Of a DNA stretch of 21,851 nucleotides, positions 2,443 through 15,047 are shown piece after piece. Source of the DNA: a virus (lineage: Duplodnaviria > Heunggongvirae > Uroviricota > Caudoviricetes); IMG/VR virus record IMGVR_UViG_2547132277_000002; one strand, given 5' to 3'. The notes under the pieces are model-generated. The model saw only the letters and a list, made by a program, of their open reading frames with translations, searched no databases and was not told the DNA's origin. The position numbers were made by a program, and so were the translations under genes. Every line of letters starts with the position of its first letter. The stretch's first letter is position 1.

Positions 2443-2517
<75 letters not shown>

Positions 2518-2520
2518 ATA

Positions 2521-2596
<76 letters not shown>

Positions 2597-2598
2597 AC

Positions 2599-2675
2599 TG
2601 GACCGCCACCGGGGACTCGAACCTCGCACACTCAACTTAAAGAGTTGACGCTCTTTCCTGATGAGCTAGTGGCGG
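2599..2675 (-). tRNA. tRNA of uncertain identity (manual fold gives anticodon UUU, Lys-like, with atypical C at position 33)
   Basis: 77 nt, CCA encoded; acceptor CCGCCAC/GTGGCGG (C1-G72), D-arm GCTC-ATCAGGAAA-GAGC, anticodon stem TCAAC/GTTGA, loop UCUUUAA, T-loop TTCGAGT. Needs tRNAscan-SE. Confidence 0.5.
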
Positions 2676-2676
2676 T

Positions 2677-2752
2677 TGGTGGCCCTTGCTGGATTTGAAC
2701 CAGCGACCTGGCGATTATGAGTCGCTCGCTCTCACCACTGAGCTAAAGGGCC
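2677..2752 (-). tRNA. tRNA with CAU anticodon, ileX/ileZ-like (tRNA-Ile2; elongator Met not excluded)
   Basis: 76 nt, CCA encoded; GGCCCTTTAGCTCAGTGGTGAGAGC...CTCATAA...GGTTCAAATCC...AAGGGCCACCA closely resembles E. coli tRNA-Ile2 as recalled; anticodon loop CUCAUAA. Confidence 0.7.
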
Positions 2753-2871: not shown

Positions 2872-2894
2872 CAAAAAAACCCGCTTGATGCGGG
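2872..2894 (-). terminator. Hairpin terminator separating the cargo operon from the tRNA/late promoter
   Basis: CCCGC-TTGAT-GCGGG stem-loop at 2880-2894 preceded by an A7 run on plus (T7 after the stem on minus); only TTT follows on the plus strand. Confidence 0.5.
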
Positions 2895-2942
2895 TTTAAG
2901 TTGTGTGGCGAAGCGACCACTCTTAACAGATTAAGATAGTTT

Positions 2943-2972
2943 TTGCGTACGCGTTAGTGATTTTTTCATAAT
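2943..2972 (+). promoter_or_regulatory. Candidate sigma70 promoter for the plus-strand three-gene cargo operon
   Basis: -35 TTGCGT at 2943-2948, 18-bp spacer, -10 CATAAT at 2967-2972, ~45 bp upstream of the probable start codon. Confidence 0.4.
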
Positions 2973-2984
2973 TATCTGTATCCT

Positions 2985-3896
2985 GTGGCTATTTCTCTTG
3001 CGCAAAGGATGCTTTTGATGACGCAGCAACTCGAAAACATGCCAATAACAGAAATCGAAATTGCCTACGGTGGAGAGGCATACGCAGATAATCAGATCGA
3101 CGCGAAAACATTAGGCGAAGCCTTAACCTCTCTTAGTGCCCTGATTGAACACGCCGAAAAAATAATTAATGGCGAAACAGCAGAGCCGAAAGTCAACATC
3201 AAGGCAACAAAAGAAGGTTCATTTACTTTGCTTGTTGCTGTGATGGGGAGCATAAAAACTATTAACGCCCTTGGCCTCGTTGCAGGTGGTGGAGTTGCCG
3301 CAGGTGGCGTACTCGGGATAATCGAATGGCTCAAAGGGCGTAAAATCAGCTCCATTGTCGTCGATGAACAAAAAGATACAGCAGAAATCGAAGTGGATGG
3401 TGAGAAGGTTAAATGCAGTAACGACATTCAAAAATTAATAACCAGTCCAATCATCCGAAAAGAACTGGATAAATTAATCTATAAACCCCTGCAGACTGAA
3501 AAACCATCCACGTTCTCAGTTTCACAGCAGAAGCATAAGGTAGTCAGGGTGACGCAAGCTGAAGCAGTAAGTTTTAAAACTGCAAAATCCACCTTTGTCG
3601 AGAAAACGCACGTAACGACACGCCAAGCTAATGTACATTTTGCTAATGTTCGATTCAAGCAAGGCAAAAGCTGGGATATCATCCTGCCAAATGGCGAAGA
3701 AGTTAGCGCATCTATGAAAGATGAGGCTTTTCTTGAACGGGTTGAACACAACCAAGCAGCATTCTGTAAGGGTGATCTTTTTGTTGTAGAACTGACAGAA
3801 ACAACAAAAGAAACAAATGGCGCGCTGTCTAAACCACGCTATAGTATTACTAAGGTTATACGCCACAGAGCGGCGGCAGATAGGAAACTACTTTAA
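2985..3896 (+). CDS. Cargo gene A: unknown protein with a central Gly-rich hydrophobic segment (probable start ATG 3018, 292 aa)
   Basis: ORF-track start 2985 is GTG; ATG at 3018 has AAGGA 8 nt upstream. Hydrophobic stretch FTLLVAVMGSIKTINALGLVAGGGVAAGGVLGIIEWL; no motif I can assign. Opposite strand to every flanking phage gene. Confidence 0.6.
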   Translation: MAISLAQRMLLMTQQLENMPITEIEIAYGGEAYADNQIDAKTLGEALTSLSALIEHAEKIINGETAEPKVNIKATKEGSFTLLVAVMGSIKTINALGLVAGGGVAAGGVLGIIEWLKGRKISSIVVDEQKDTAEIEVDGEKVKCSNDIQKLITSPIIRKELDKLIYKPLQTEKPSTFSVSQQKHKVVRVTQAEAVSFKTAKSTFVEKTHVTTRQANVHFANVRFKQGKSWDIILPNGEEVSASMKDEAFLERVEHNQAAFCKGDLFVVELTETTKETNGALSKPRYSITKVIRHRAAADRKLL

Positions 3897-6694: not shown

Positions 6695-7816
6695 CTAGTG
6701 AATTTTGCCTCTAAGAGTTCGGTAAGATTGTAGTGAAACAACATCACCACTTCCTGGCAGTTCATGAACCGCAGGAAGATCATCTCCTACTAACTCATAA
6801 AAAATGTCCACTTCTATATCCATTTCATCAGCTATACGCTGTGGGTCGTATCCTAACTCTTCAAATAAAAACGATAAAGCCCGACGGAATAACTCAGGAC
6901 GCTCATGAGGGATTAGATAATCTTCTTTTTCATCAATAGCTTCCCCTTTCCGTTTCAACCCCATAAATGCAGTTCTGTACTGCTCATCAGTCAAAAGTCC
7001 TAATTGATGAGCCCTGTAAACAATGGCAGCCTTACTTACTTTCCATGTCAACTTAAATTGGCTTAGTCCCTGCCAATTTATCCTCCCCCCCACAGGTCTT
7101 GGAAAATATTTCGCCATCGACGTTCTGGGAAGCAACAGAGCAGAGGCAAAACGGTTTGCCTGGGATTCAGTTAATCTATCCCCAGTAGAAATTCCTTCAT
7201 GAAGAATCAAATGGGCAACCTCATGAGCAATATCAAAGCGTTGCCTACAAGGTGAATTTTTAGCTGTATTTCGAACAATAAAAGGCCTTCGTAGAGGAAC
7301 AGACAGTGCATCTACTTCATCCGAAACGGAGTCAAATGAAGTAACAAACGCCCCAAGTTTCTCGGCAAGGCGAGTCATATTTTCAATTGGGCCAAAGCCT
7401 AAGCCCCACTCAATACGACATTTTTCTGCCGCTCGCTCGATATCTTCTTGTGTATGGACACGAAATTCAGGAAATCGAACAGGTGACAAATTAAGGTTAT
7501 CTTCAAATACATCAATAAAACGACGATAAAACTCAGCCTTAGCGAGTGTTGATAGCTTCGTTGACATCCTTGTCGAGGCGCGTTTACGAAAATGTACAAT
7601 CTCTTCATTAACAGGAGAATGTTCCTGCCCTTCGAAAAAGGCGGGCTTCACGCGCAAAACCTCGGCTAATTTATTTATAAGCTCTGGGGATGGAGTAGCT
7701 GAACCAGACTCCAGTCGCTGTACATACTGGCGTGTTTTTTCAACCTTCTCAGCAACCTGCTCCAGAGATAGCTCGTGATACAGACGAGCAAGTCTTAAAT
7801 TAGTACCGTTAAACAC
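6695..7816 (-). CDS. Fused XRE-family HTH regulator / ImmA-IrrE (COG2856) zinc metallopeptidase
   Basis: 373 aa; N-terminal HTH LRLARLYHELSLEQVAEKVEKTRQYVQRLESG; HEXXH zinc motif in DIAHEVAHLILHEG; GTG start 11 nt after the upstream gene stop. Confidence 0.8.
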   Translation of the reverse strand: MFNGTNLRLARLYHELSLEQVAEKVEKTRQYVQRLESGSATPSPELINKLAEVLRVKPAFFEGQEHSPVNEEIVHFRKRASTRMSTKLSTLAKAEFYRRFIDVFEDNLNLSPVRFPEFRVHTQEDIERAAEKCRIEWGLGFGPIENMTRLAEKLGAFVTSFDSVSDEVDALSVPLRRPFIVRNTAKNSPCRQRFDIAHEVAHLILHEGISTGDRLTESQANRFASALLLPRTSMAKYFPRPVGGRINWQGLSQFKLTWKVSKAAIVYRAHQLGLLTDEQYRTAFMGLKRKGEAIDEKEDYLIPHERPELFRRALSFLFEELGYDPQRIADEMDIEVDIFYELVGDDLPAVHELPGSGDVVSLQSYRTLRGKIH

Positions 7817-7826
7817 ATTTCACCCA

Positions 7827-8420
7827 CTATTTGCTATTTTGTTTCTTTTCCTTCTCAGTCTTAGACGCACTGATAGGTTCTAGTTCGATAGGTACCGGTG
7901 CTGGAGGTACATCATCGACAGAGTTCAGCATAACAACACGGTCCGCACCATATGTCCAAGTTGACACGATCTCACCAAACACGTTATAGCCATTAAAAAT
8001 GACTCTACCACCCTCGCCTTCAAATTCAGGCTTTTCAACCACAAAGCGATGCATAGTTGGAGTAGTCTCCTCTGACTCAAAGAGTCGATCAGCATCATTT
8101 CTTTTGAAAAAACCGCGTTTCTTGGGGTTATCTGCGTCATCAGTAAAGAAACGAATAGGGACATTCCCAATTGAAAACGTAAGATCCATGCCAGGATTAA
8201 GTAGTCTTAACCAGTCATATGTCTTTCGTACGCACATTTGTAGCAACGCCTGCCGCTGACGCCCAAATGTACAACCACCACGAGTGTAATTATCATCATA
8301 GGGCGATGACAATAACTCATGAGTAATATCCTGTATCCTGAGCAACTCCTCAGCTATAATGGTTAAACGCACCTCTGTTAACTCAGGAAAGAACTCCCAA
8401 GGGAATGGATGGTTCTGCAT
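7827..8420 (-). CDS. Unknown protein, first gene of the two-gene cassette (197 aa from ATG 8420; ORF track extends to 8468)
   Basis: ATG at 8420 has GGAG 8 nt upstream; the longer start would overlap promoter-like TTGACA boxes. No recognisable domain. Confidence 0.55.
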   Translation of the reverse strand: MQNHPFPWEFFPELTEVRLTIIAEELLRIQDITHELLSSPYDDNYTRGGCTFGRQRQALLQMCVRKTYDWLRLLNPGMDLTFSIGNVPIRFFTDDADNPKKRGFFKRNDADRLFESEETTPTMHRFVVEKPEFEGEGGRVIFNGYNVFGEIVSTWTYGADRVVMLNSVDDVPPAPVPIELEPISASKTEKEKKQNSK

Positions 8421-8469
8421 AGACACTTCTCCGCCTAATCCGTGCAAAAAACGACTTTTGTCAACCAAG

Positions 8470-12039: not shown

Positions 12040-12465
12040 TCAATGCACAGCCACAATATTTCCTGCAGGGCCACCACGATTCATCTGGTTGAAACCAGCG
12101 ATCGCCACTGCGACAAAATCATCAGCGTCTCTCACCAGTCGTTCCCGCGTCTCCACTAGTTCCCGAAAATACGCTGAGCTATGACTGCGCATTCGGGCCA
12201 CCAGCAGAGGTGGCATTGCTTTTTCGATAGCTGGTAACAACGCCTGAATTTTTTTAACCGCATCAGGGGTGTCTTTCTCCACCCAGCGGAAAATTTTCTG
12301 AGTATTGCGAGCCAGGGCTTCCGGATGGCTGTCGTCATACAGTTCCGGGAACGTCATTCCCAGCTCGAAATACGCTTTGGTAATTTTCGCAGCCGGTACT
12401 TTTTCGCCGTCCGGATGCGCCCAGGCATTCATCGCCATGCGGATGTGTTCATGCTTGATTTTCAT
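12040..12465 (-). CDS. YdaT-like (cII-type) regulator of Rac-like prophages
   Basis: 141 aa beginning MKIKHEHI and ending VH, as recalled for Rac YdaT; start overlaps the stop of the upstream Cro-like gene (ATGA). Confidence 0.65.
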   Translation of the reverse strand: MKIKHEHIRMAMNAWAHPDGEKVPAAKITKAYFELGMTFPELYDDSHPEALARNTQKIFRWVEKDTPDAVKKIQALLPAIEKAMPPLLVARMRSHSSAYFRELVETRERLVRDADDFVAVAIAGFNQMNRGGPAGNIVAVH

Positions 12466-12716
12466 GAATCAACTCCCATCAGCTTTTTCGTAGTAGTTTT
12501 ATTCCTGCCAATAGTTAAAATTGCATCGGCAGAAAATAATCCGTTTGATGCAAGAGCGATTTTTTCAGCGTAATTTGTTTCGCCGGTATATTCTGTGCGA
12601 GGCAATTTTCCGTTATCCATCCATTTATAGATTGCTCTTTGGCTGACACCACAAACGTCGGCCACAACAGCAACGCGAACAGTTTTGATTACATCTTCAA
12701 GTGTTTTCTGGTTCAT
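12462..12716 (-). CDS. Cro-like HTH regulator (YdaS family)
   Basis: Probable start ATG 12716 (SD GAGGGTG 4 nt upstream), 84 aa; HTH VADVCGVSQRAIYKWMDNGKLP; divergent from the repressor gene. ORF-track start 12788 lies in the operator region. Confidence 0.65.
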   Translation of the reverse strand: MNQKTLEDVIKTVRVAVVADVCGVSQRAIYKWMDNGKLPRTEYTGETNYAEKIALASNGLFSADAILTIGRNKTTTKKLMGVDS

Positions 12717-12795
12717 ATCACCCTCACAATGTGAACTTTGAGTACATGCCATAACAGAACTGACAGTACATTCAAGAGCGAATATCATTGAACTT
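12717..12795. promoter_or_regulatory. Divergent promoter/operator region (OR-like) between Cro-like and repressor genes
   Basis: Two AGTACAT motifs (12741-12747, 12765-12771) and inverted repeat TGAAC-TTATG-GTTCA (12789-12803) spanning the repressor start codon. Confidence 0.5.
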
Positions 12796-13215
12796 ATGGT
12801 TCATGAAGATAAAGCGCGTAAAGAGTTCGCCAGTAGGCTTGCGCTAGCCTGTGAAAACGCTGGTTATGAACAACATGGAAGGCAGGCAGAAATTGCCCGT
12901 CGAATGAAATTAACACCAAAAGCGGTTAGCAAATGGTTTAATGGCGAAACAATTCCTCGCCGGGAGAAATTAAGGGAATTAGCAACACTAATAGGAACAA
13001 CACCAACCTATCTTTTGGGAGAGGATACAGAAGAAAGTGGACAGGTACGTTTCTATCAGGAGTTAAATCCAAGACAAAAAATCATCATTGACCTTCTGGA
13101 CGAGCTCCCTGACAGTGAGACAGATGAACTTTTAAAAACTCTTGAAGAGAAAAAACAGAAGTACAATGCAATTTACGAAGAGTTAGCACGAAAGAAAAAA
13201 CAAAAAGCCTCTTAA
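12796..13215 (+). CDS. Prophage repressor, HTH-only (RacR/CI-like; no LexA-type autopeptidase domain)
   Basis: 139 aa; HTH GRQAEIARRMKLTPKAVSKWFNGE; same strand as the early-left genes and int; divergent from the Cro-like gene. Confidence 0.65.
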   Translation: MVHEDKARKEFASRLALACENAGYEQHGRQAEIARRMKLTPKAVSKWFNGETIPRREKLRELATLIGTTPTYLLGEDTEESGQVRFYQELNPRQKIIIDLLDELPDSETDELLKTLEEKKQKYNAIYEELARKKKQKAS

Positions 13216-13290
13216 ACCAGCATAAATCCGGTAGCGCCTTCCTCCGGGTTTGTGCTTCACTTTATCCCATCTCATTTTTTTACACACAAA

Positions 13291-13331
13291 ATGTACTAAA
13301 AGTACTTTACAACAATGAACGCAAAGTACAT
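13291..13331. promoter_or_regulatory. OL-like operator cluster downstream of the repressor gene
   Basis: Palindrome GTACTAAAAGTAC (13293-13305) and further AGTACAT-type motifs at 13291-13297 (inverted), 13301-13307 (variant), 13325-13331. Confidence 0.4.
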
Positions 13332-13512
13332 TATATGCCTACCACCCACCCCGCCCCACAGAATGCAGGGCAATACTTCGAGTTACCAGGCAGTGGTCAG
13401 GGGTTAAGTAGCCAGCCCGAGGCGTAAGAACATGACGGCAGGGTTCAACTTTAATAACTATGCAGCAGGTTTTTGTTCCGCTACCCCGGCGTTAAGGGGA
13501 AATGAGGTCAGC

Positions 13513-14654: not shown

Positions 14655-15047
14655 TTCACCCTCCTGAGGGTTGGTAATTAAGGAGTTCTCCACGGGTCAG
14701 GTGGAGTGCGTGCGCCGGACACGGGTGAGCATCCGGCACTGGCAGTTTACTGGAAGGATATATCCCTGAAAAGTCAGGACATAACGCGAAAGCGCACGGC
14801 GAAGTTATTCTGTCTGTACGGTGTCGTTAAATTTAATTCGACCGTGCGCTTCCGGTTGTGGCAATCCGCGAAATGGCGCGGCGGTAAGTATGGCGGGGTT
14901 ATTCCTTCCCCGTTGAGGACACCGGGTTGTCAGGTTGACCATACGCTTAAGTGACAACCCCGCTGCAACGCCCTCTGTTATCAATTTTCTGGTGGCGTTT
15001 AGCGGTATCAGTTTTACTCCGTGACTGCTCTGCCGCCCTTTTTAAAG

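What the first reader, a model, noticed from the sequence alone, without database searches (positions are those of the whole stretch)
12741..13331. Seven-bp motif AGTACAT recurs on both sides of the repressor gene (candidate operator half-sites)
AGTACAT or its complement occurs at 12741, 12765, 13291 (inverted), 13301 (variant) and 13325, including the palindrome GTACTAAAAGTAC, within ~600 bp framing the repressor; a TGAAC/GTTCA inverted repeat spans the repressor start codon. The arrangement mirrors OR and OL flanking cI in lambda and defines the immunity specificity of this prophage.
Basis: seen in the sequence. Interest (0 to 1): 0.45.

Follow-up and report, generated by a model that had tools for sequence, protein, structure and literature searches.

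The report
HK022-type operators flanking a prophage repressor
The repeated AGTACAT motif is real: it is one half of five 15-bp binding sites for the prophage repressor, of a type already characterised in phages HK022 and 933W, so this is an ordinary but correctly spotted lysis/lysogeny switch.

Summary
All four exact AGTACAT copies in the 21.8-kb window lie within 12741-13331, a clustering seen in 0 of 3000 simulations.

The 7-mer is not the unit. It is the stronger half of a 15-bp dyad, T-G-(A/T)-A-C-N5-G-T-(A/T)-C-A. Five copies exist:
- OR1 12732-12746, OR2 12756-12770 and OR3 12789-12803, spaced 24 and 33 bp.
- OL2 13292-13306 and OL1 13316-13330, spaced 24 bp, around a PL-like promoter.

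The layout and half-sites match the annotated operators of phage HK022 and the biochemically mapped operators of 933W. The repressor N-terminal domain is 58% identical to HK022 CI over residues 4-75 and keeps K42 and K46. The Cro-like protein is 60% identical to HK022 Cro. The same triplet at -63/-39/-6 from the repressor ATG recurs in 30 of 34 proteobacterial loci, with variable spacers.

The difference from HK022 is the repressor C-terminus. It is a short DicA-like tail, not an S24 autopeptidase, and the module sits in a Qin-like phage (99.6% identical to phage Tritos over 1.1 kb) found in 1046 of 5426 complete E. coli genomes.

Verdict: a new member of a known kind, of low-to-moderate interest. 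Binding itself is inferred, not shown.

The parts
12732..12746 (.). OR1-like operator TGAACTTTGAGTACA, nearest the cro-like gene; covers the predicted PR start region
   Evidence: Positionally homologous to the HK022 oR site at 3057-3071.
12756..12770 (.). OR2-like operator AGAACTGACAGTACA, 24 bp from OR1. It lies in the PR spacer and contains the PRM -35 hexamer.
   Evidence: Its spacer TGA-A is invariant across 30 loci. Homologous to HK022 3033-3047 and to 933W oR2.
12789..12803 (.). OR3-like operator TGAACTTATGGTTCA, 33 bp from OR2; spans the repressor ATG.
   Evidence: Identical over 15 bp to HK022 OR1 and OR3. Sits at -6 from the ATG in most relatives.
13292..13306 (.). OL2-like operator TGTACTAAAAGTACT (GTAC in both halves); its last base is the first base of the PL -35 hexamer
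   Evidence: Homologous to the HK022 oL site at 2225-2239.
13316..13330 (.). OL1-like operator TGAACGCAAAGTACA, 24 bp from OL2; lies between the PL -35 and -10
   Evidence: Homologous to the HK022 oL site at 2201-2215.
12748..12775 (-). Candidate PR: TTGAAT (12775-12770), 16-bp spacer, TATGGC (12753-12748), preceded by TG; drives the cro-like gene
   Evidence: Read. Positionally homologous to the HK022 pR annotated in X16093, whose sequence I read as TTGACT-16-CATAAT. Not found by the strict promoter scan because the -10 is weak.
12760..12788 (+). Candidate PRM: CTGACA-17-TATCAT. The -10 ends 7 nt before the ATG, which predicts a leaderless repressor mRNA.
   Evidence: A -10 of the form TAnnAT is conserved in relatives. 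Same position as the 933W annotated pM. Leaderless paaR2 and cI are described in PMC8630535.
13306..13334 (+). Candidate PL: TTTACA-17-CATTAT; drives the ydfA-like gene, DicF, dicB, exoVIII, xis and int
   Evidence: TTTACA is conserved in relatives and HK022. Downstream genes.
12796..13215 (+). Repressor gene, 139 aa: an HK022/933W-type HTH N-terminal domain plus a DicA-like short C-terminal domain, with no S24 peptidase
12462..12716 (-). Cro-like gene, 84 aa: 60% identical to HK022 Cro and 47% to 933W Cro
13219..13256 (+). Stable hairpin just after the repressor stop codon; a possible terminator or processing site upstream of OL
   Evidence: -19.2 kcal/mol, z = -4.6. The stem is conserved in E. 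coli variants. It has no canonical T-run, so its function is not established.

Best explanation
The AGTACAT copies are half-sites of five 15-bp, two-fold symmetric operators with consensus T-G-(A/T)-A-C-N5-G-T-(A/T)-C-A. These operators belong to the HK022/933W class of lambdoid immunity regions.

Proposed mechanism (all steps inferred by homology and geometry):
- A dimer of the 139-aa repressor binds each site through its helix-turn-helix. The recognition helix is T40-P41-K42-A43-V44-S45-K46-W47.
- OR1 and OR2 overlap the leftward PR promoter of the cro-like gene.
- OL1 and OL2 overlap the rightward PL promoter, which drives ydfA-dicF-dicB-exoVIII-xis-int. Occupancy of these four sites silences both early operons in the lysogen.
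- OR3 has two weaker GAAC-type halves and sits on the start of a probably leaderless repressor mRNA from PRM. It would give negative autoregulation at high repressor levels.
- The Cro-like protein, a HK022 Cro homologue, is expected to use the same sites to shut off PRM.
- The repressor carries a DicA-like C-terminal tail instead of an S24 autopeptidase. Induction should therefore not go through RecA-stimulated self-cleavage but through some other route, such as an antirepressor or bistable switching.

Shown here: the sites, their statistics, their conservation, and the protein homologies. Inferred: binding, the order of occupancy, the promoter assignments, the leaderless start and the induction route.
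For: Site statistics
- The five sites are the only clustered matches in the window, and they are the top five PWM scores.

Match to HK022 and 933W
- Geometry matches HK022: three OR sites spaced 24 and 33 bp with the third over the cI ATG, and two OL sites spaced 24 bp bracketing the PL -35.
- 933W has five natural 15-bp sites with positions 2-5 conserved. Mutagenesis and footprinting there define G-(A/T)-A-C and a T or C at position 6 (PMC3317979). Nine of the ten window half-sites have T or C at position 6. In relatives it is 181 of 192, a position not constrained by my search pattern.
- The repressor N-terminal domain is 58% identical to HK022 CI over residues 4-75 and 51% identical to 933W CI over residues 1-73. 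K42 and K46, the base-contacting lysines in the 933W model, are invariant in the alignment.
- Cro is 60% identical to HK022 Cro.

Conservation in relatives
- 30 of 34 proteobacterial loci carry the triplet at about -63/-39/-6, and 24 of 34 carry a downstream pair 24-25 bp apart. Background is 0.1 matches per kb elsewhere.
- Half-sites are conserved while the N5 spacers vary.

Negative controls
- The K-12 Qin dicA-dicC region, which has a different DicA N-terminal domain, has no such sites in 11 kb.
- Firmicute loci sharing only the helix peptide have none.

Promoters
- Promoter-like hexamers overlap the sites.
Against: - There are no binding data for this protein. Everything rests on homology and position.
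- PR in this window has a poor -10, TATGGC, and was not called by the promoter scan.
- OR2 contains the PRM -35 hexamer, so lambda-style activation of PRM from OR2 is not obviously possible. How PRM stays on in the lysogen is unresolved.
- Related loci were retrieved with the peptide TPKAVSKW, so conservation of the recognition helix among them is partly by construction.
- In HK022, cooperativity and looping were shown for the intact S24-type CI and are presumably mediated by its C-terminal domain, which is absent here. Pairwise cooperativity and OL-OR looping may therefore differ.
- No third OL site and no far-right operator was found at 2 or fewer mismatches.
Confidence: 0.85

Rival explanations
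1. The 7-mer AGTACAT is itself the recognition unit: a direct repeat bound by monomers or by a different factor. On this reading the TGAAC/GTTCA repeat at the start codon is an unrelated element.
For: Three of the four exact copies are in the same orientation, and two are 24 bp apart.
Against: - Every copy sits 5 bp from a GAAC or GTAC on its other side, forming a dyad.
- In relatives the 7-mer is often absent while the GWAC-N5-GTWC dyad persists at the same positions. L007 has no AGTACAT at all but has the full OR triplet.
- HK022 and 933W sites are defined as 15-bp symmetric sites.
Confidence: 0.04
2. The sites are bound by the YdaT-like CII-equivalent protein, or by another regulator, rather than by the repressor and Cro.
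For: A YdaT-family gene lies directly downstream of the cro-like gene.
Against: - CP-933P YdaT recognises TTGATT-N6-AATCAA (PMC9986795).
- A perfect copy of that different motif is present elsewhere in the window, at 12455-12472.
- The GWAC sites travel with the repressor N-terminal domain and Cro even in loci that lack a YdaT-type gene, for example the Raoultella locus L005.
Confidence: 0.03
3. The inverted GTAC/GAAC elements downstream of the repressor form an RNA hairpin or intrinsic terminator rather than protein-binding sites.
For: The terminator scan reports a stem-loop plus T-run on the - strand at 13329-13302.
Against: - The stem is made of the OL1 and OL2 half-sites.
- No leftward gene ends there; all the neighbouring genes are on the + strand.
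- One terminator-like hit is within the shuffle expectation of 1.6.
- The same pair of sites at 24-bp spacing is conserved while the intervening sequence, which includes the TTTACA -35, behaves as a promoter.
Confidence: 0.02
4. The clustering is chance, or reflects AT-rich intergenic composition.
For: The total count of four AGTACAT copies is within the range of shuffles.
Against: - 0 of 3000 simulations cluster 4 copies within 600 bp.
- 0 of 100 shuffles reach 6 dyad matches.
- The sites are conserved at fixed spacing across genera.
Confidence: 0.01

Closest known systems
Coliphage HK022 immunity region (cI, cro, OR1-3, OL; GenBank X16093)
   Same: - The same 15-bp dyad and the same OR spacing of 24 and 33 bp.
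- OR3 sits over the cI ATG.
- Two OL sites 24 bp apart bracket a TTTACA -35.
- Window OR3 is identical to HK022 OR1 and OR3.
- The CI N-terminal domain is 58% identical over residues 4-75 (47% over 99 aligned residues). The recognition helix is TPKAVSKWFNGE here and TPKAISKWFNGE in HK022.
- Cro is 60% identical.
   Different: - HK022 CI translates to 235 aa from the annotated CDS and has an S24 autopeptidase domain. The window repressor is 139 aa with a DicA-like tail.
- HK022 has an extra operator just after cro and, per PMC8053113, an OL3. Neither is detectable in the window.
- HK022 has nun/cII-type neighbours. The window has a YdaT-type CII equivalent and a dicF/dicB early-left operon.
Stx phage 933W repressor and operators
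   Same: - Five natural 15-bp symmetric sites, three at OR and two at OL.
- Conserved positions 2-5, G-(A/T)-A-C, and T or C at position 6.
- K42 and K46 in the recognition helix.
- An annotated PRM whose -35 lies inside OR2, and a cI start inside OR3.
   Different: - The N-terminal domain is only 51% identical, with helix SSKGVSKW instead of TPKAVSKW.
- 933W has an S24-type C-terminal domain.
- The 933W repressor is reported not to bind adjacent sites cooperatively (PMC3317979).
DicA/DicC switch of the cryptic prophage Qin (E. coli K-12)
   Same: - Gene order: cro-like, repressor, ydfA, ydfB, ydfC, DicF, dicB, ydfD.
- A short repressor of about 135-139 aa without an S24 domain.
- C-terminal-domain similarity: 29% identity over 112 aa, E = 5e-15, extending through the tail.
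   Different: - The DicA N-terminal domain is P22 C2-like, and its operator Oc is TTGTTAGTCATAACTAACAA (PMC3441716). That motif is absent from the window.
- GWAC dyads are absent from the K-12 Qin region.
- No homologue of the DicA antirepressor Rem is in the window.
PaaR2/YdaS/YdaT switch of CP-933P (E. coli O157:H7)
   Same: - A short, non-cleavable, CI-like repressor translated from a leaderless mRNA.
- OR- and OL-type operators.
- A YdaT-type CII equivalent. A perfect YdaT OM motif sits at the cro/ydaT junction in the window.
   Different: - Its operators have the consensus GTTTAGTAA and a different layout of four palindromes.
- Sequence homology of PaaR2 to the window repressor was not tested.
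Phage lambda OR/OL
   Same: - Functional logic: a divergent PR/PRM with three operators.
- PL operators lie downstream of the repressor gene and face the same direction.
- A leaderless cI mRNA.
   Different: - Lambda has unrelated 17-bp operator sequences and three OL sites.
- Lambda OR2 abuts the PRM -35 rather than containing it.

Membership tests
HK022/933W-type lambdoid operator-repressor module | 15-bp rotationally symmetric operator with conserved positions 2-5 G-(A/T)-A-C in each half | tested here: met
   Five sites match, three with 0 and two with 1 mismatch to TGWAC-N5-GTWCA. They are the top five PWM scores in the window.
HK022/933W-type lambdoid operator-repressor module | Three sites between cI and cro (spacing 24 and 33 bp, the third over the cI start) and two sites 24 bp apart at PL | tested here: met
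   Window dyad (13-mer) starts at 12733, 12757 and 12790, and at 13293 and 13317. This is the same layout as the HK022 and 933W annotations.
HK022/933W-type lambdoid operator-repressor module | Repressor N-terminal HTH domain homologous to HK022/933W CI, with K42 and K46 in the recognition helix | tested here: met
   58% identity to HK022 CI and 51% to 933W CI by tblastn. K42 and K46 are invariant. Their role in 933W is described in PMC3317979.
HK022/933W-type lambdoid operator-repressor module | Cro homologous to HK022/933W Cro | tested here: met
   60% and 47% identity, E = 1e-33 and 1e-23.
HK022/933W-type lambdoid operator-repressor module | Repressor C-terminal S24 (LexA-like) autopeptidase domain | tested here: not met
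   No Peptidase_S24 Pfam hit. The protein is 139 aa and its tail aligns with DicA. Most relatives carrying the same operators do have an S24 domain.
HK022/933W-type lambdoid operator-repressor module | Repressor and Cro physically bind the sites and repress PR and PL | not testable with these tools
   Needs EMSA or footprinting and reporter assays.
DicA-type short prophage repressors (Qin) | About 135-140 aa: an N-terminal HTH plus a short helical C-terminal tail homologous to DicA, with no S24 domain | tested here: met
   BLASTP against K-12 DicA gives E = 5e-15 over residues 30-137, including the tail. Pfam finds only HTH families.
DicA-type short prophage repressors (Qin) | DicA operator Oc (TTGTTAG-N6-CTAACAA) | tested here: not met
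   0 matches at 3 or fewer mismatches in the window. Oc sequence from PMC3441716.
DicA-type short prophage repressors (Qin) | Controls a downstream ydfABC-dicF-dicB operon from a PL-like promoter | tested here: inconclusive
   The gene order and DicF are present, and a PL-like promoter overlaps OL1 and OL2. Control itself was not tested.

The most novel reading that the evidence does not exclude
An HK022-type specificity module (Cro, OR/OL operators and the CI DNA-binding domain) has been recombined onto a DicA-type C-terminal tail that cannot self-cleave. About one in five complete E. coli genomes would then carry a non-cleavable repressor that recognises essentially the same operators as SOS-inducible HK022-like phages: window OR3 equals HK022 OR1 and OR3, and the recognition helices differ at one residue. 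If the proteins cross-bind, these prophages could give SOS-resistant immunity against, or trans-repression of, HK022-immunity phages, and the reverse. More generally, the -63/-39/-6 operator layout is conserved from Enterobacterales to Vibrio, Pasteurellaceae, Pseudomonas and Salinicola.
Probability: 0.3. Interest if true: 0.45.

Novelty: new member of a known kind. Interest (0 to 1): 0.25.

Why it matters
It gives a concrete operator map (five sites, three promoters) for an immunity region present in 1046 of 5426 complete E. coli genomes and in the functional phage Tritos. That phage's GenBank record annotates no operators.

It also shows that DNA-binding specificity and the induction-sensing domain of lambdoid repressors are swapped independently. 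This predicts which prophages may cross-repress one another.

It does not reveal a new regulatory principle.

Tried and rejected
- **Operator strings in the literature.** A full-text search for six exact operator 13-mers returned only an unrelated nanobody paper. A search for "phage Tritos" found no paper.
- **Solved structures.** The search gave only weak hits to the P22 C2 and 434 N-terminal domains for the repressor, and nothing for the Cro-like protein.
- **LexA boxes.** CTGT-N8-ACAG at 1 or fewer mismatches is at chance level, 8 found against 7.3 expected, so no SOS-controlled antirepressor promoter was identified.
- **Rem.** The DicA antirepressor Rem has no homologue in the window by tblastn.
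- **DicA operator Oc.** Absent from the window.
- **Extra HK022 operators.** A third OL site and a far-right operator were looked for at 2 or fewer mismatches and with a PWM. Neither was found.
- **Minus-strand terminator-like hit at 13329-13302.** Rejected as a by-product of the operator palindromes.
- **Not run.** I did not run structure prediction or the large HMMER representative search, because sequence homology to characterised systems already answered the question.

Full report
**Observation**

AGTACAT occurs at 12741, 12765 and 13325 on the + strand and at 13291 on the - strand. There are no other copies in the 21,851-bp window. The variant AGTACTT is at 13301. The palindrome GTACTAAAAGTAC is at 13293-13305. 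The repeat TGAAC...GTTCA at 12789-12803 spans the ATG (12796) of a 139-aa HTH protein.

Four copies is not an unusual total. Their confinement to 591 bp is: 0 of 3000 first-order Markov simulations gave 4 or more copies within 600 bp.

**What the unit really is**

Each copy lies 5 bp from a GAAC or GTAC on its other side. The pattern GWAC-N5-GTWC has 6 matches in the window against 0.75 expected, with 0 of 100 shuffles reaching 6. Five of the six lie in this region, at 12733, 12757, 12790, 13293 and 13317.

With the flanking T and A, the sites are 15-mers:

| Site | Coordinates | Sequence |
|---|---|---|
| OR1 | 12732-12746 | TGAACTTTGAGTACA |
| OR2 | 12756-12770 | AGAACTGACAGTACA |
| OR3 | 12789-12803 | TGAACTTATGGTTCA |
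| OL2 | 13292-13306 | TGTACTAAAAGTACT |
| OL1 | 13316-13330 | TGAACGCAAAGTACA |

The spacing is 24 and 33 bp at OR and 24 bp at OL.

**Context**

- The window is a lambdoid prophage. The 1.1-kb stretch 12400-13500 is 99.6% identical to phage Tritos.
- Leftward from the intergenic region lie a Cro-like gene (12716-12462), a YdaT-family CII-equivalent gene (12465-12040) and a replication gene.
- Rightward lie the repressor (12796-13215), a DUF1391/ydfA-like gene, DicF (14987-15038), dicB, ydfD, exoVIII, xis and int. This is the Qin gene order.
- The 646-bp immunity segment is present in 1046 of 5426 complete E. coli genomes.

**Comparative test**

Homologues of the repressor share the N-terminal approximately 75 residues but have different C-termini.

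In Salmonella loci (65% and 62% identical short repressors), Raoultella loci (240-aa S24 repressor) and metagenomic loci (235-aa S24 repressor), the same dyad occurs three times upstream at identical spacing. Where the contig reaches far enough, it also occurs twice downstream, 24 bp apart. Half-sites are conserved while the N5 spacers differ.

A scan of one genome per species with the DNA-binding-domain alignment returned 37 loci. Of the 34 proteobacterial loci tallied:
- 30 have the triplet. It sits at about -63/-39/-6 from the ATG, shifted by roughly 20 bp in Pasteurellaceae.
- 24 have a downstream pair 24-25 bp apart, 0.5-3.1 kb away.
- Background elsewhere is 0.1 matches per kb.

Two positions that my search pattern did not fix are also biased: T at position 1 in 153 of 192 half-sites, and T or C at position 6 in 181 of 192. 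Two Firmicute loci that share only the helix peptide have no sites.

One caveat applies. The loci were retrieved through the peptide TPKAVSKW, so helix conservation among them is partly by construction.

**Identification**

A tblastn search against phage records shows the N-terminal domain is 58% identical to HK022 CI and 51% identical to 933W CI.

The HK022 record X16093 annotates 15-bp "potential repressor binding sites". In cI orientation these read:
- OR: TGAACTTATGGTTCA, GGAACTGATAGTACA and TGAACTTATGGTTCA, spaced 24 and 33 bp, with the last over the cI ATG.
- OL: TGTACTATTGGTACT and TGAACTTTAAGTACA, spaced 24 bp and bracketing the PL -35.

Window OR3 is identical to HK022 OR1 and OR3.

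The 933W record annotates oR1-3 and pM at the same relative positions. Published work describes 933W as follows (PMC3317979):
- It has five natural 15-bp symmetric sites with positions 2-5 conserved.
- T.A at position 3 gives higher affinity than A.T.
- T or C is preferred at position 6.
- In the authors' model, K42 and K46 of the recognition helix make the base contacts. K46A abolished specific binding.

The window repressor keeps K42 and K46. Its Cro-like protein is 60% identical to HK022 Cro and 47% identical to 933W Cro. HK022 CI has been shown to bind adjacent operators cooperatively and to loop OL to OR (PMC8053113).

**Mechanism (inferred)**

- **PL.** TTTACA-17-CATTAT (13306-13334) is overlapped by OL1 and touched at its -35 by OL2.
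- **PR.** On the - strand, TTGAAT (12775-12770), a 16-bp spacer and TATGGC (12753-12748) align with the HK022 PR, which I read as TTGACT-16-CATAAT. OR2 lies in the spacer and OR1 lies over the start region.
- **PRM.** CTGACA-17-TATCAT (12760-12788) ends 7 nt before the ATG, so the repressor mRNA should be leaderless. This is known for lambda cI and for PaaR2. A -10 of the form TAnnAT and the OR2 spacer TGA-A are conserved across relatives.
- **Site strength.** By the 933W rule, GTAC halves bind better than GAAC halves. This predicts that OL2, OR1, OR2 and OL1 are stronger than OR3, consistent with OR3 acting as the autoregulatory site.
- **Unresolved point.** OR2 contains the PRM -35, so lambda-like activation from OR2 is not evident.

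**What differs from HK022 and 933W**

The repressor has no S24 domain. Residues 88-137 align with the DicA tail: 29% identity over 112 aa, E = 5e-15. Most family members carrying the same operators are 220-250-aa S24-type proteins. Short forms are a minority.

The K-12 DicA operator Oc (PMC3441716) is absent from the window. The K-12 Qin region lacks GWAC dyads. The window therefore carries HK022-type specificity on a Qin-type chassis.

DicA is relieved by the antirepressor Rem (PMC10448788), but no Rem homologue is in the window. The induction route is unknown.

**Verdict**

This is a new member of a known operator-repressor kind, of low-to-moderate interest. Binding remains to be shown experimentally.

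Noticed in passing
window 12455-12472: TTGATTTTCATGAATCAA is a perfect match to the experimentally defined YdaT operator OM consensus, TTGATT-N6-AATCAA, of CP-933P. It sits exactly at the junction between the Cro-like stop and the YdaT-like start, and it is the only match in the window at 2 or fewer mismatches. This suggests a PRE-like, YdaT-controlled element, as in CP-933P.
   Followed up: partly
window 13219-13256: A stable hairpin lies directly after the repressor stop codon (-19.2 kcal/mol, z = -4.6). Its stem is conserved in diverged E. coli variants. It may be a terminator or processing site separating the repressor transcript from PL, but it has no canonical T-run.
   Followed up: partly
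window 12748-12753 (- strand): The PR -10 hexamer in this window is TATGGC. It is TATAGC in phage Tritos and E. coli 2013C-4991, TATATT in ETEC1730 and CATAAT in HK022. The window copy is the weakest, which may be a promoter-down change in this prophage.
   Followed up: no
window 6695-7816 (- strand) and 7827-8468 (- strand): A 373-aa protein combines an XRE-type HTH with an ImmA/IrrE-like metallopeptidase, as annotated in Tritos. It sits next to a 213-aa ORF of unknown function. It could be relevant to inactivation of the non-S24 repressor, or it could be a defence cassette.
   Followed up: no
window 2446-2752 (- strand): A cluster of four tRNA genes in the late region of the prophage.
   Followed up: no
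L007-L009, about 2886-3010: In three metagenomic contigs the same OR triplet lies between an S24-type repressor and an antiterminator-Q gene followed by lysis genes, with no cro gene in between. The repressor may control late genes directly there.
   Followed up: no
L019, L021, L024, L026 (about -330 from the repressor ATG); L047 3325: HK022-like loci carry an extra GTACTAAAAGTAC dyad just beyond cro. This matches the CI operator 300 bp downstream of OR mentioned for HK022 in PMC8053113. It is absent from the window.
   Followed up: partly
L002-L005, between the repressor gene and the downstream operator pair: The distance from the repressor to the OL pair varies from 0.5 to 3.1 kb. The gap holds cargo such as HigB/HigA-like toxin-antitoxin genes in Salmonella or a 480-aa AAA/SMC-like ATPase in Raoultella, in the position of lambda rexAB.
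   Followed up: no
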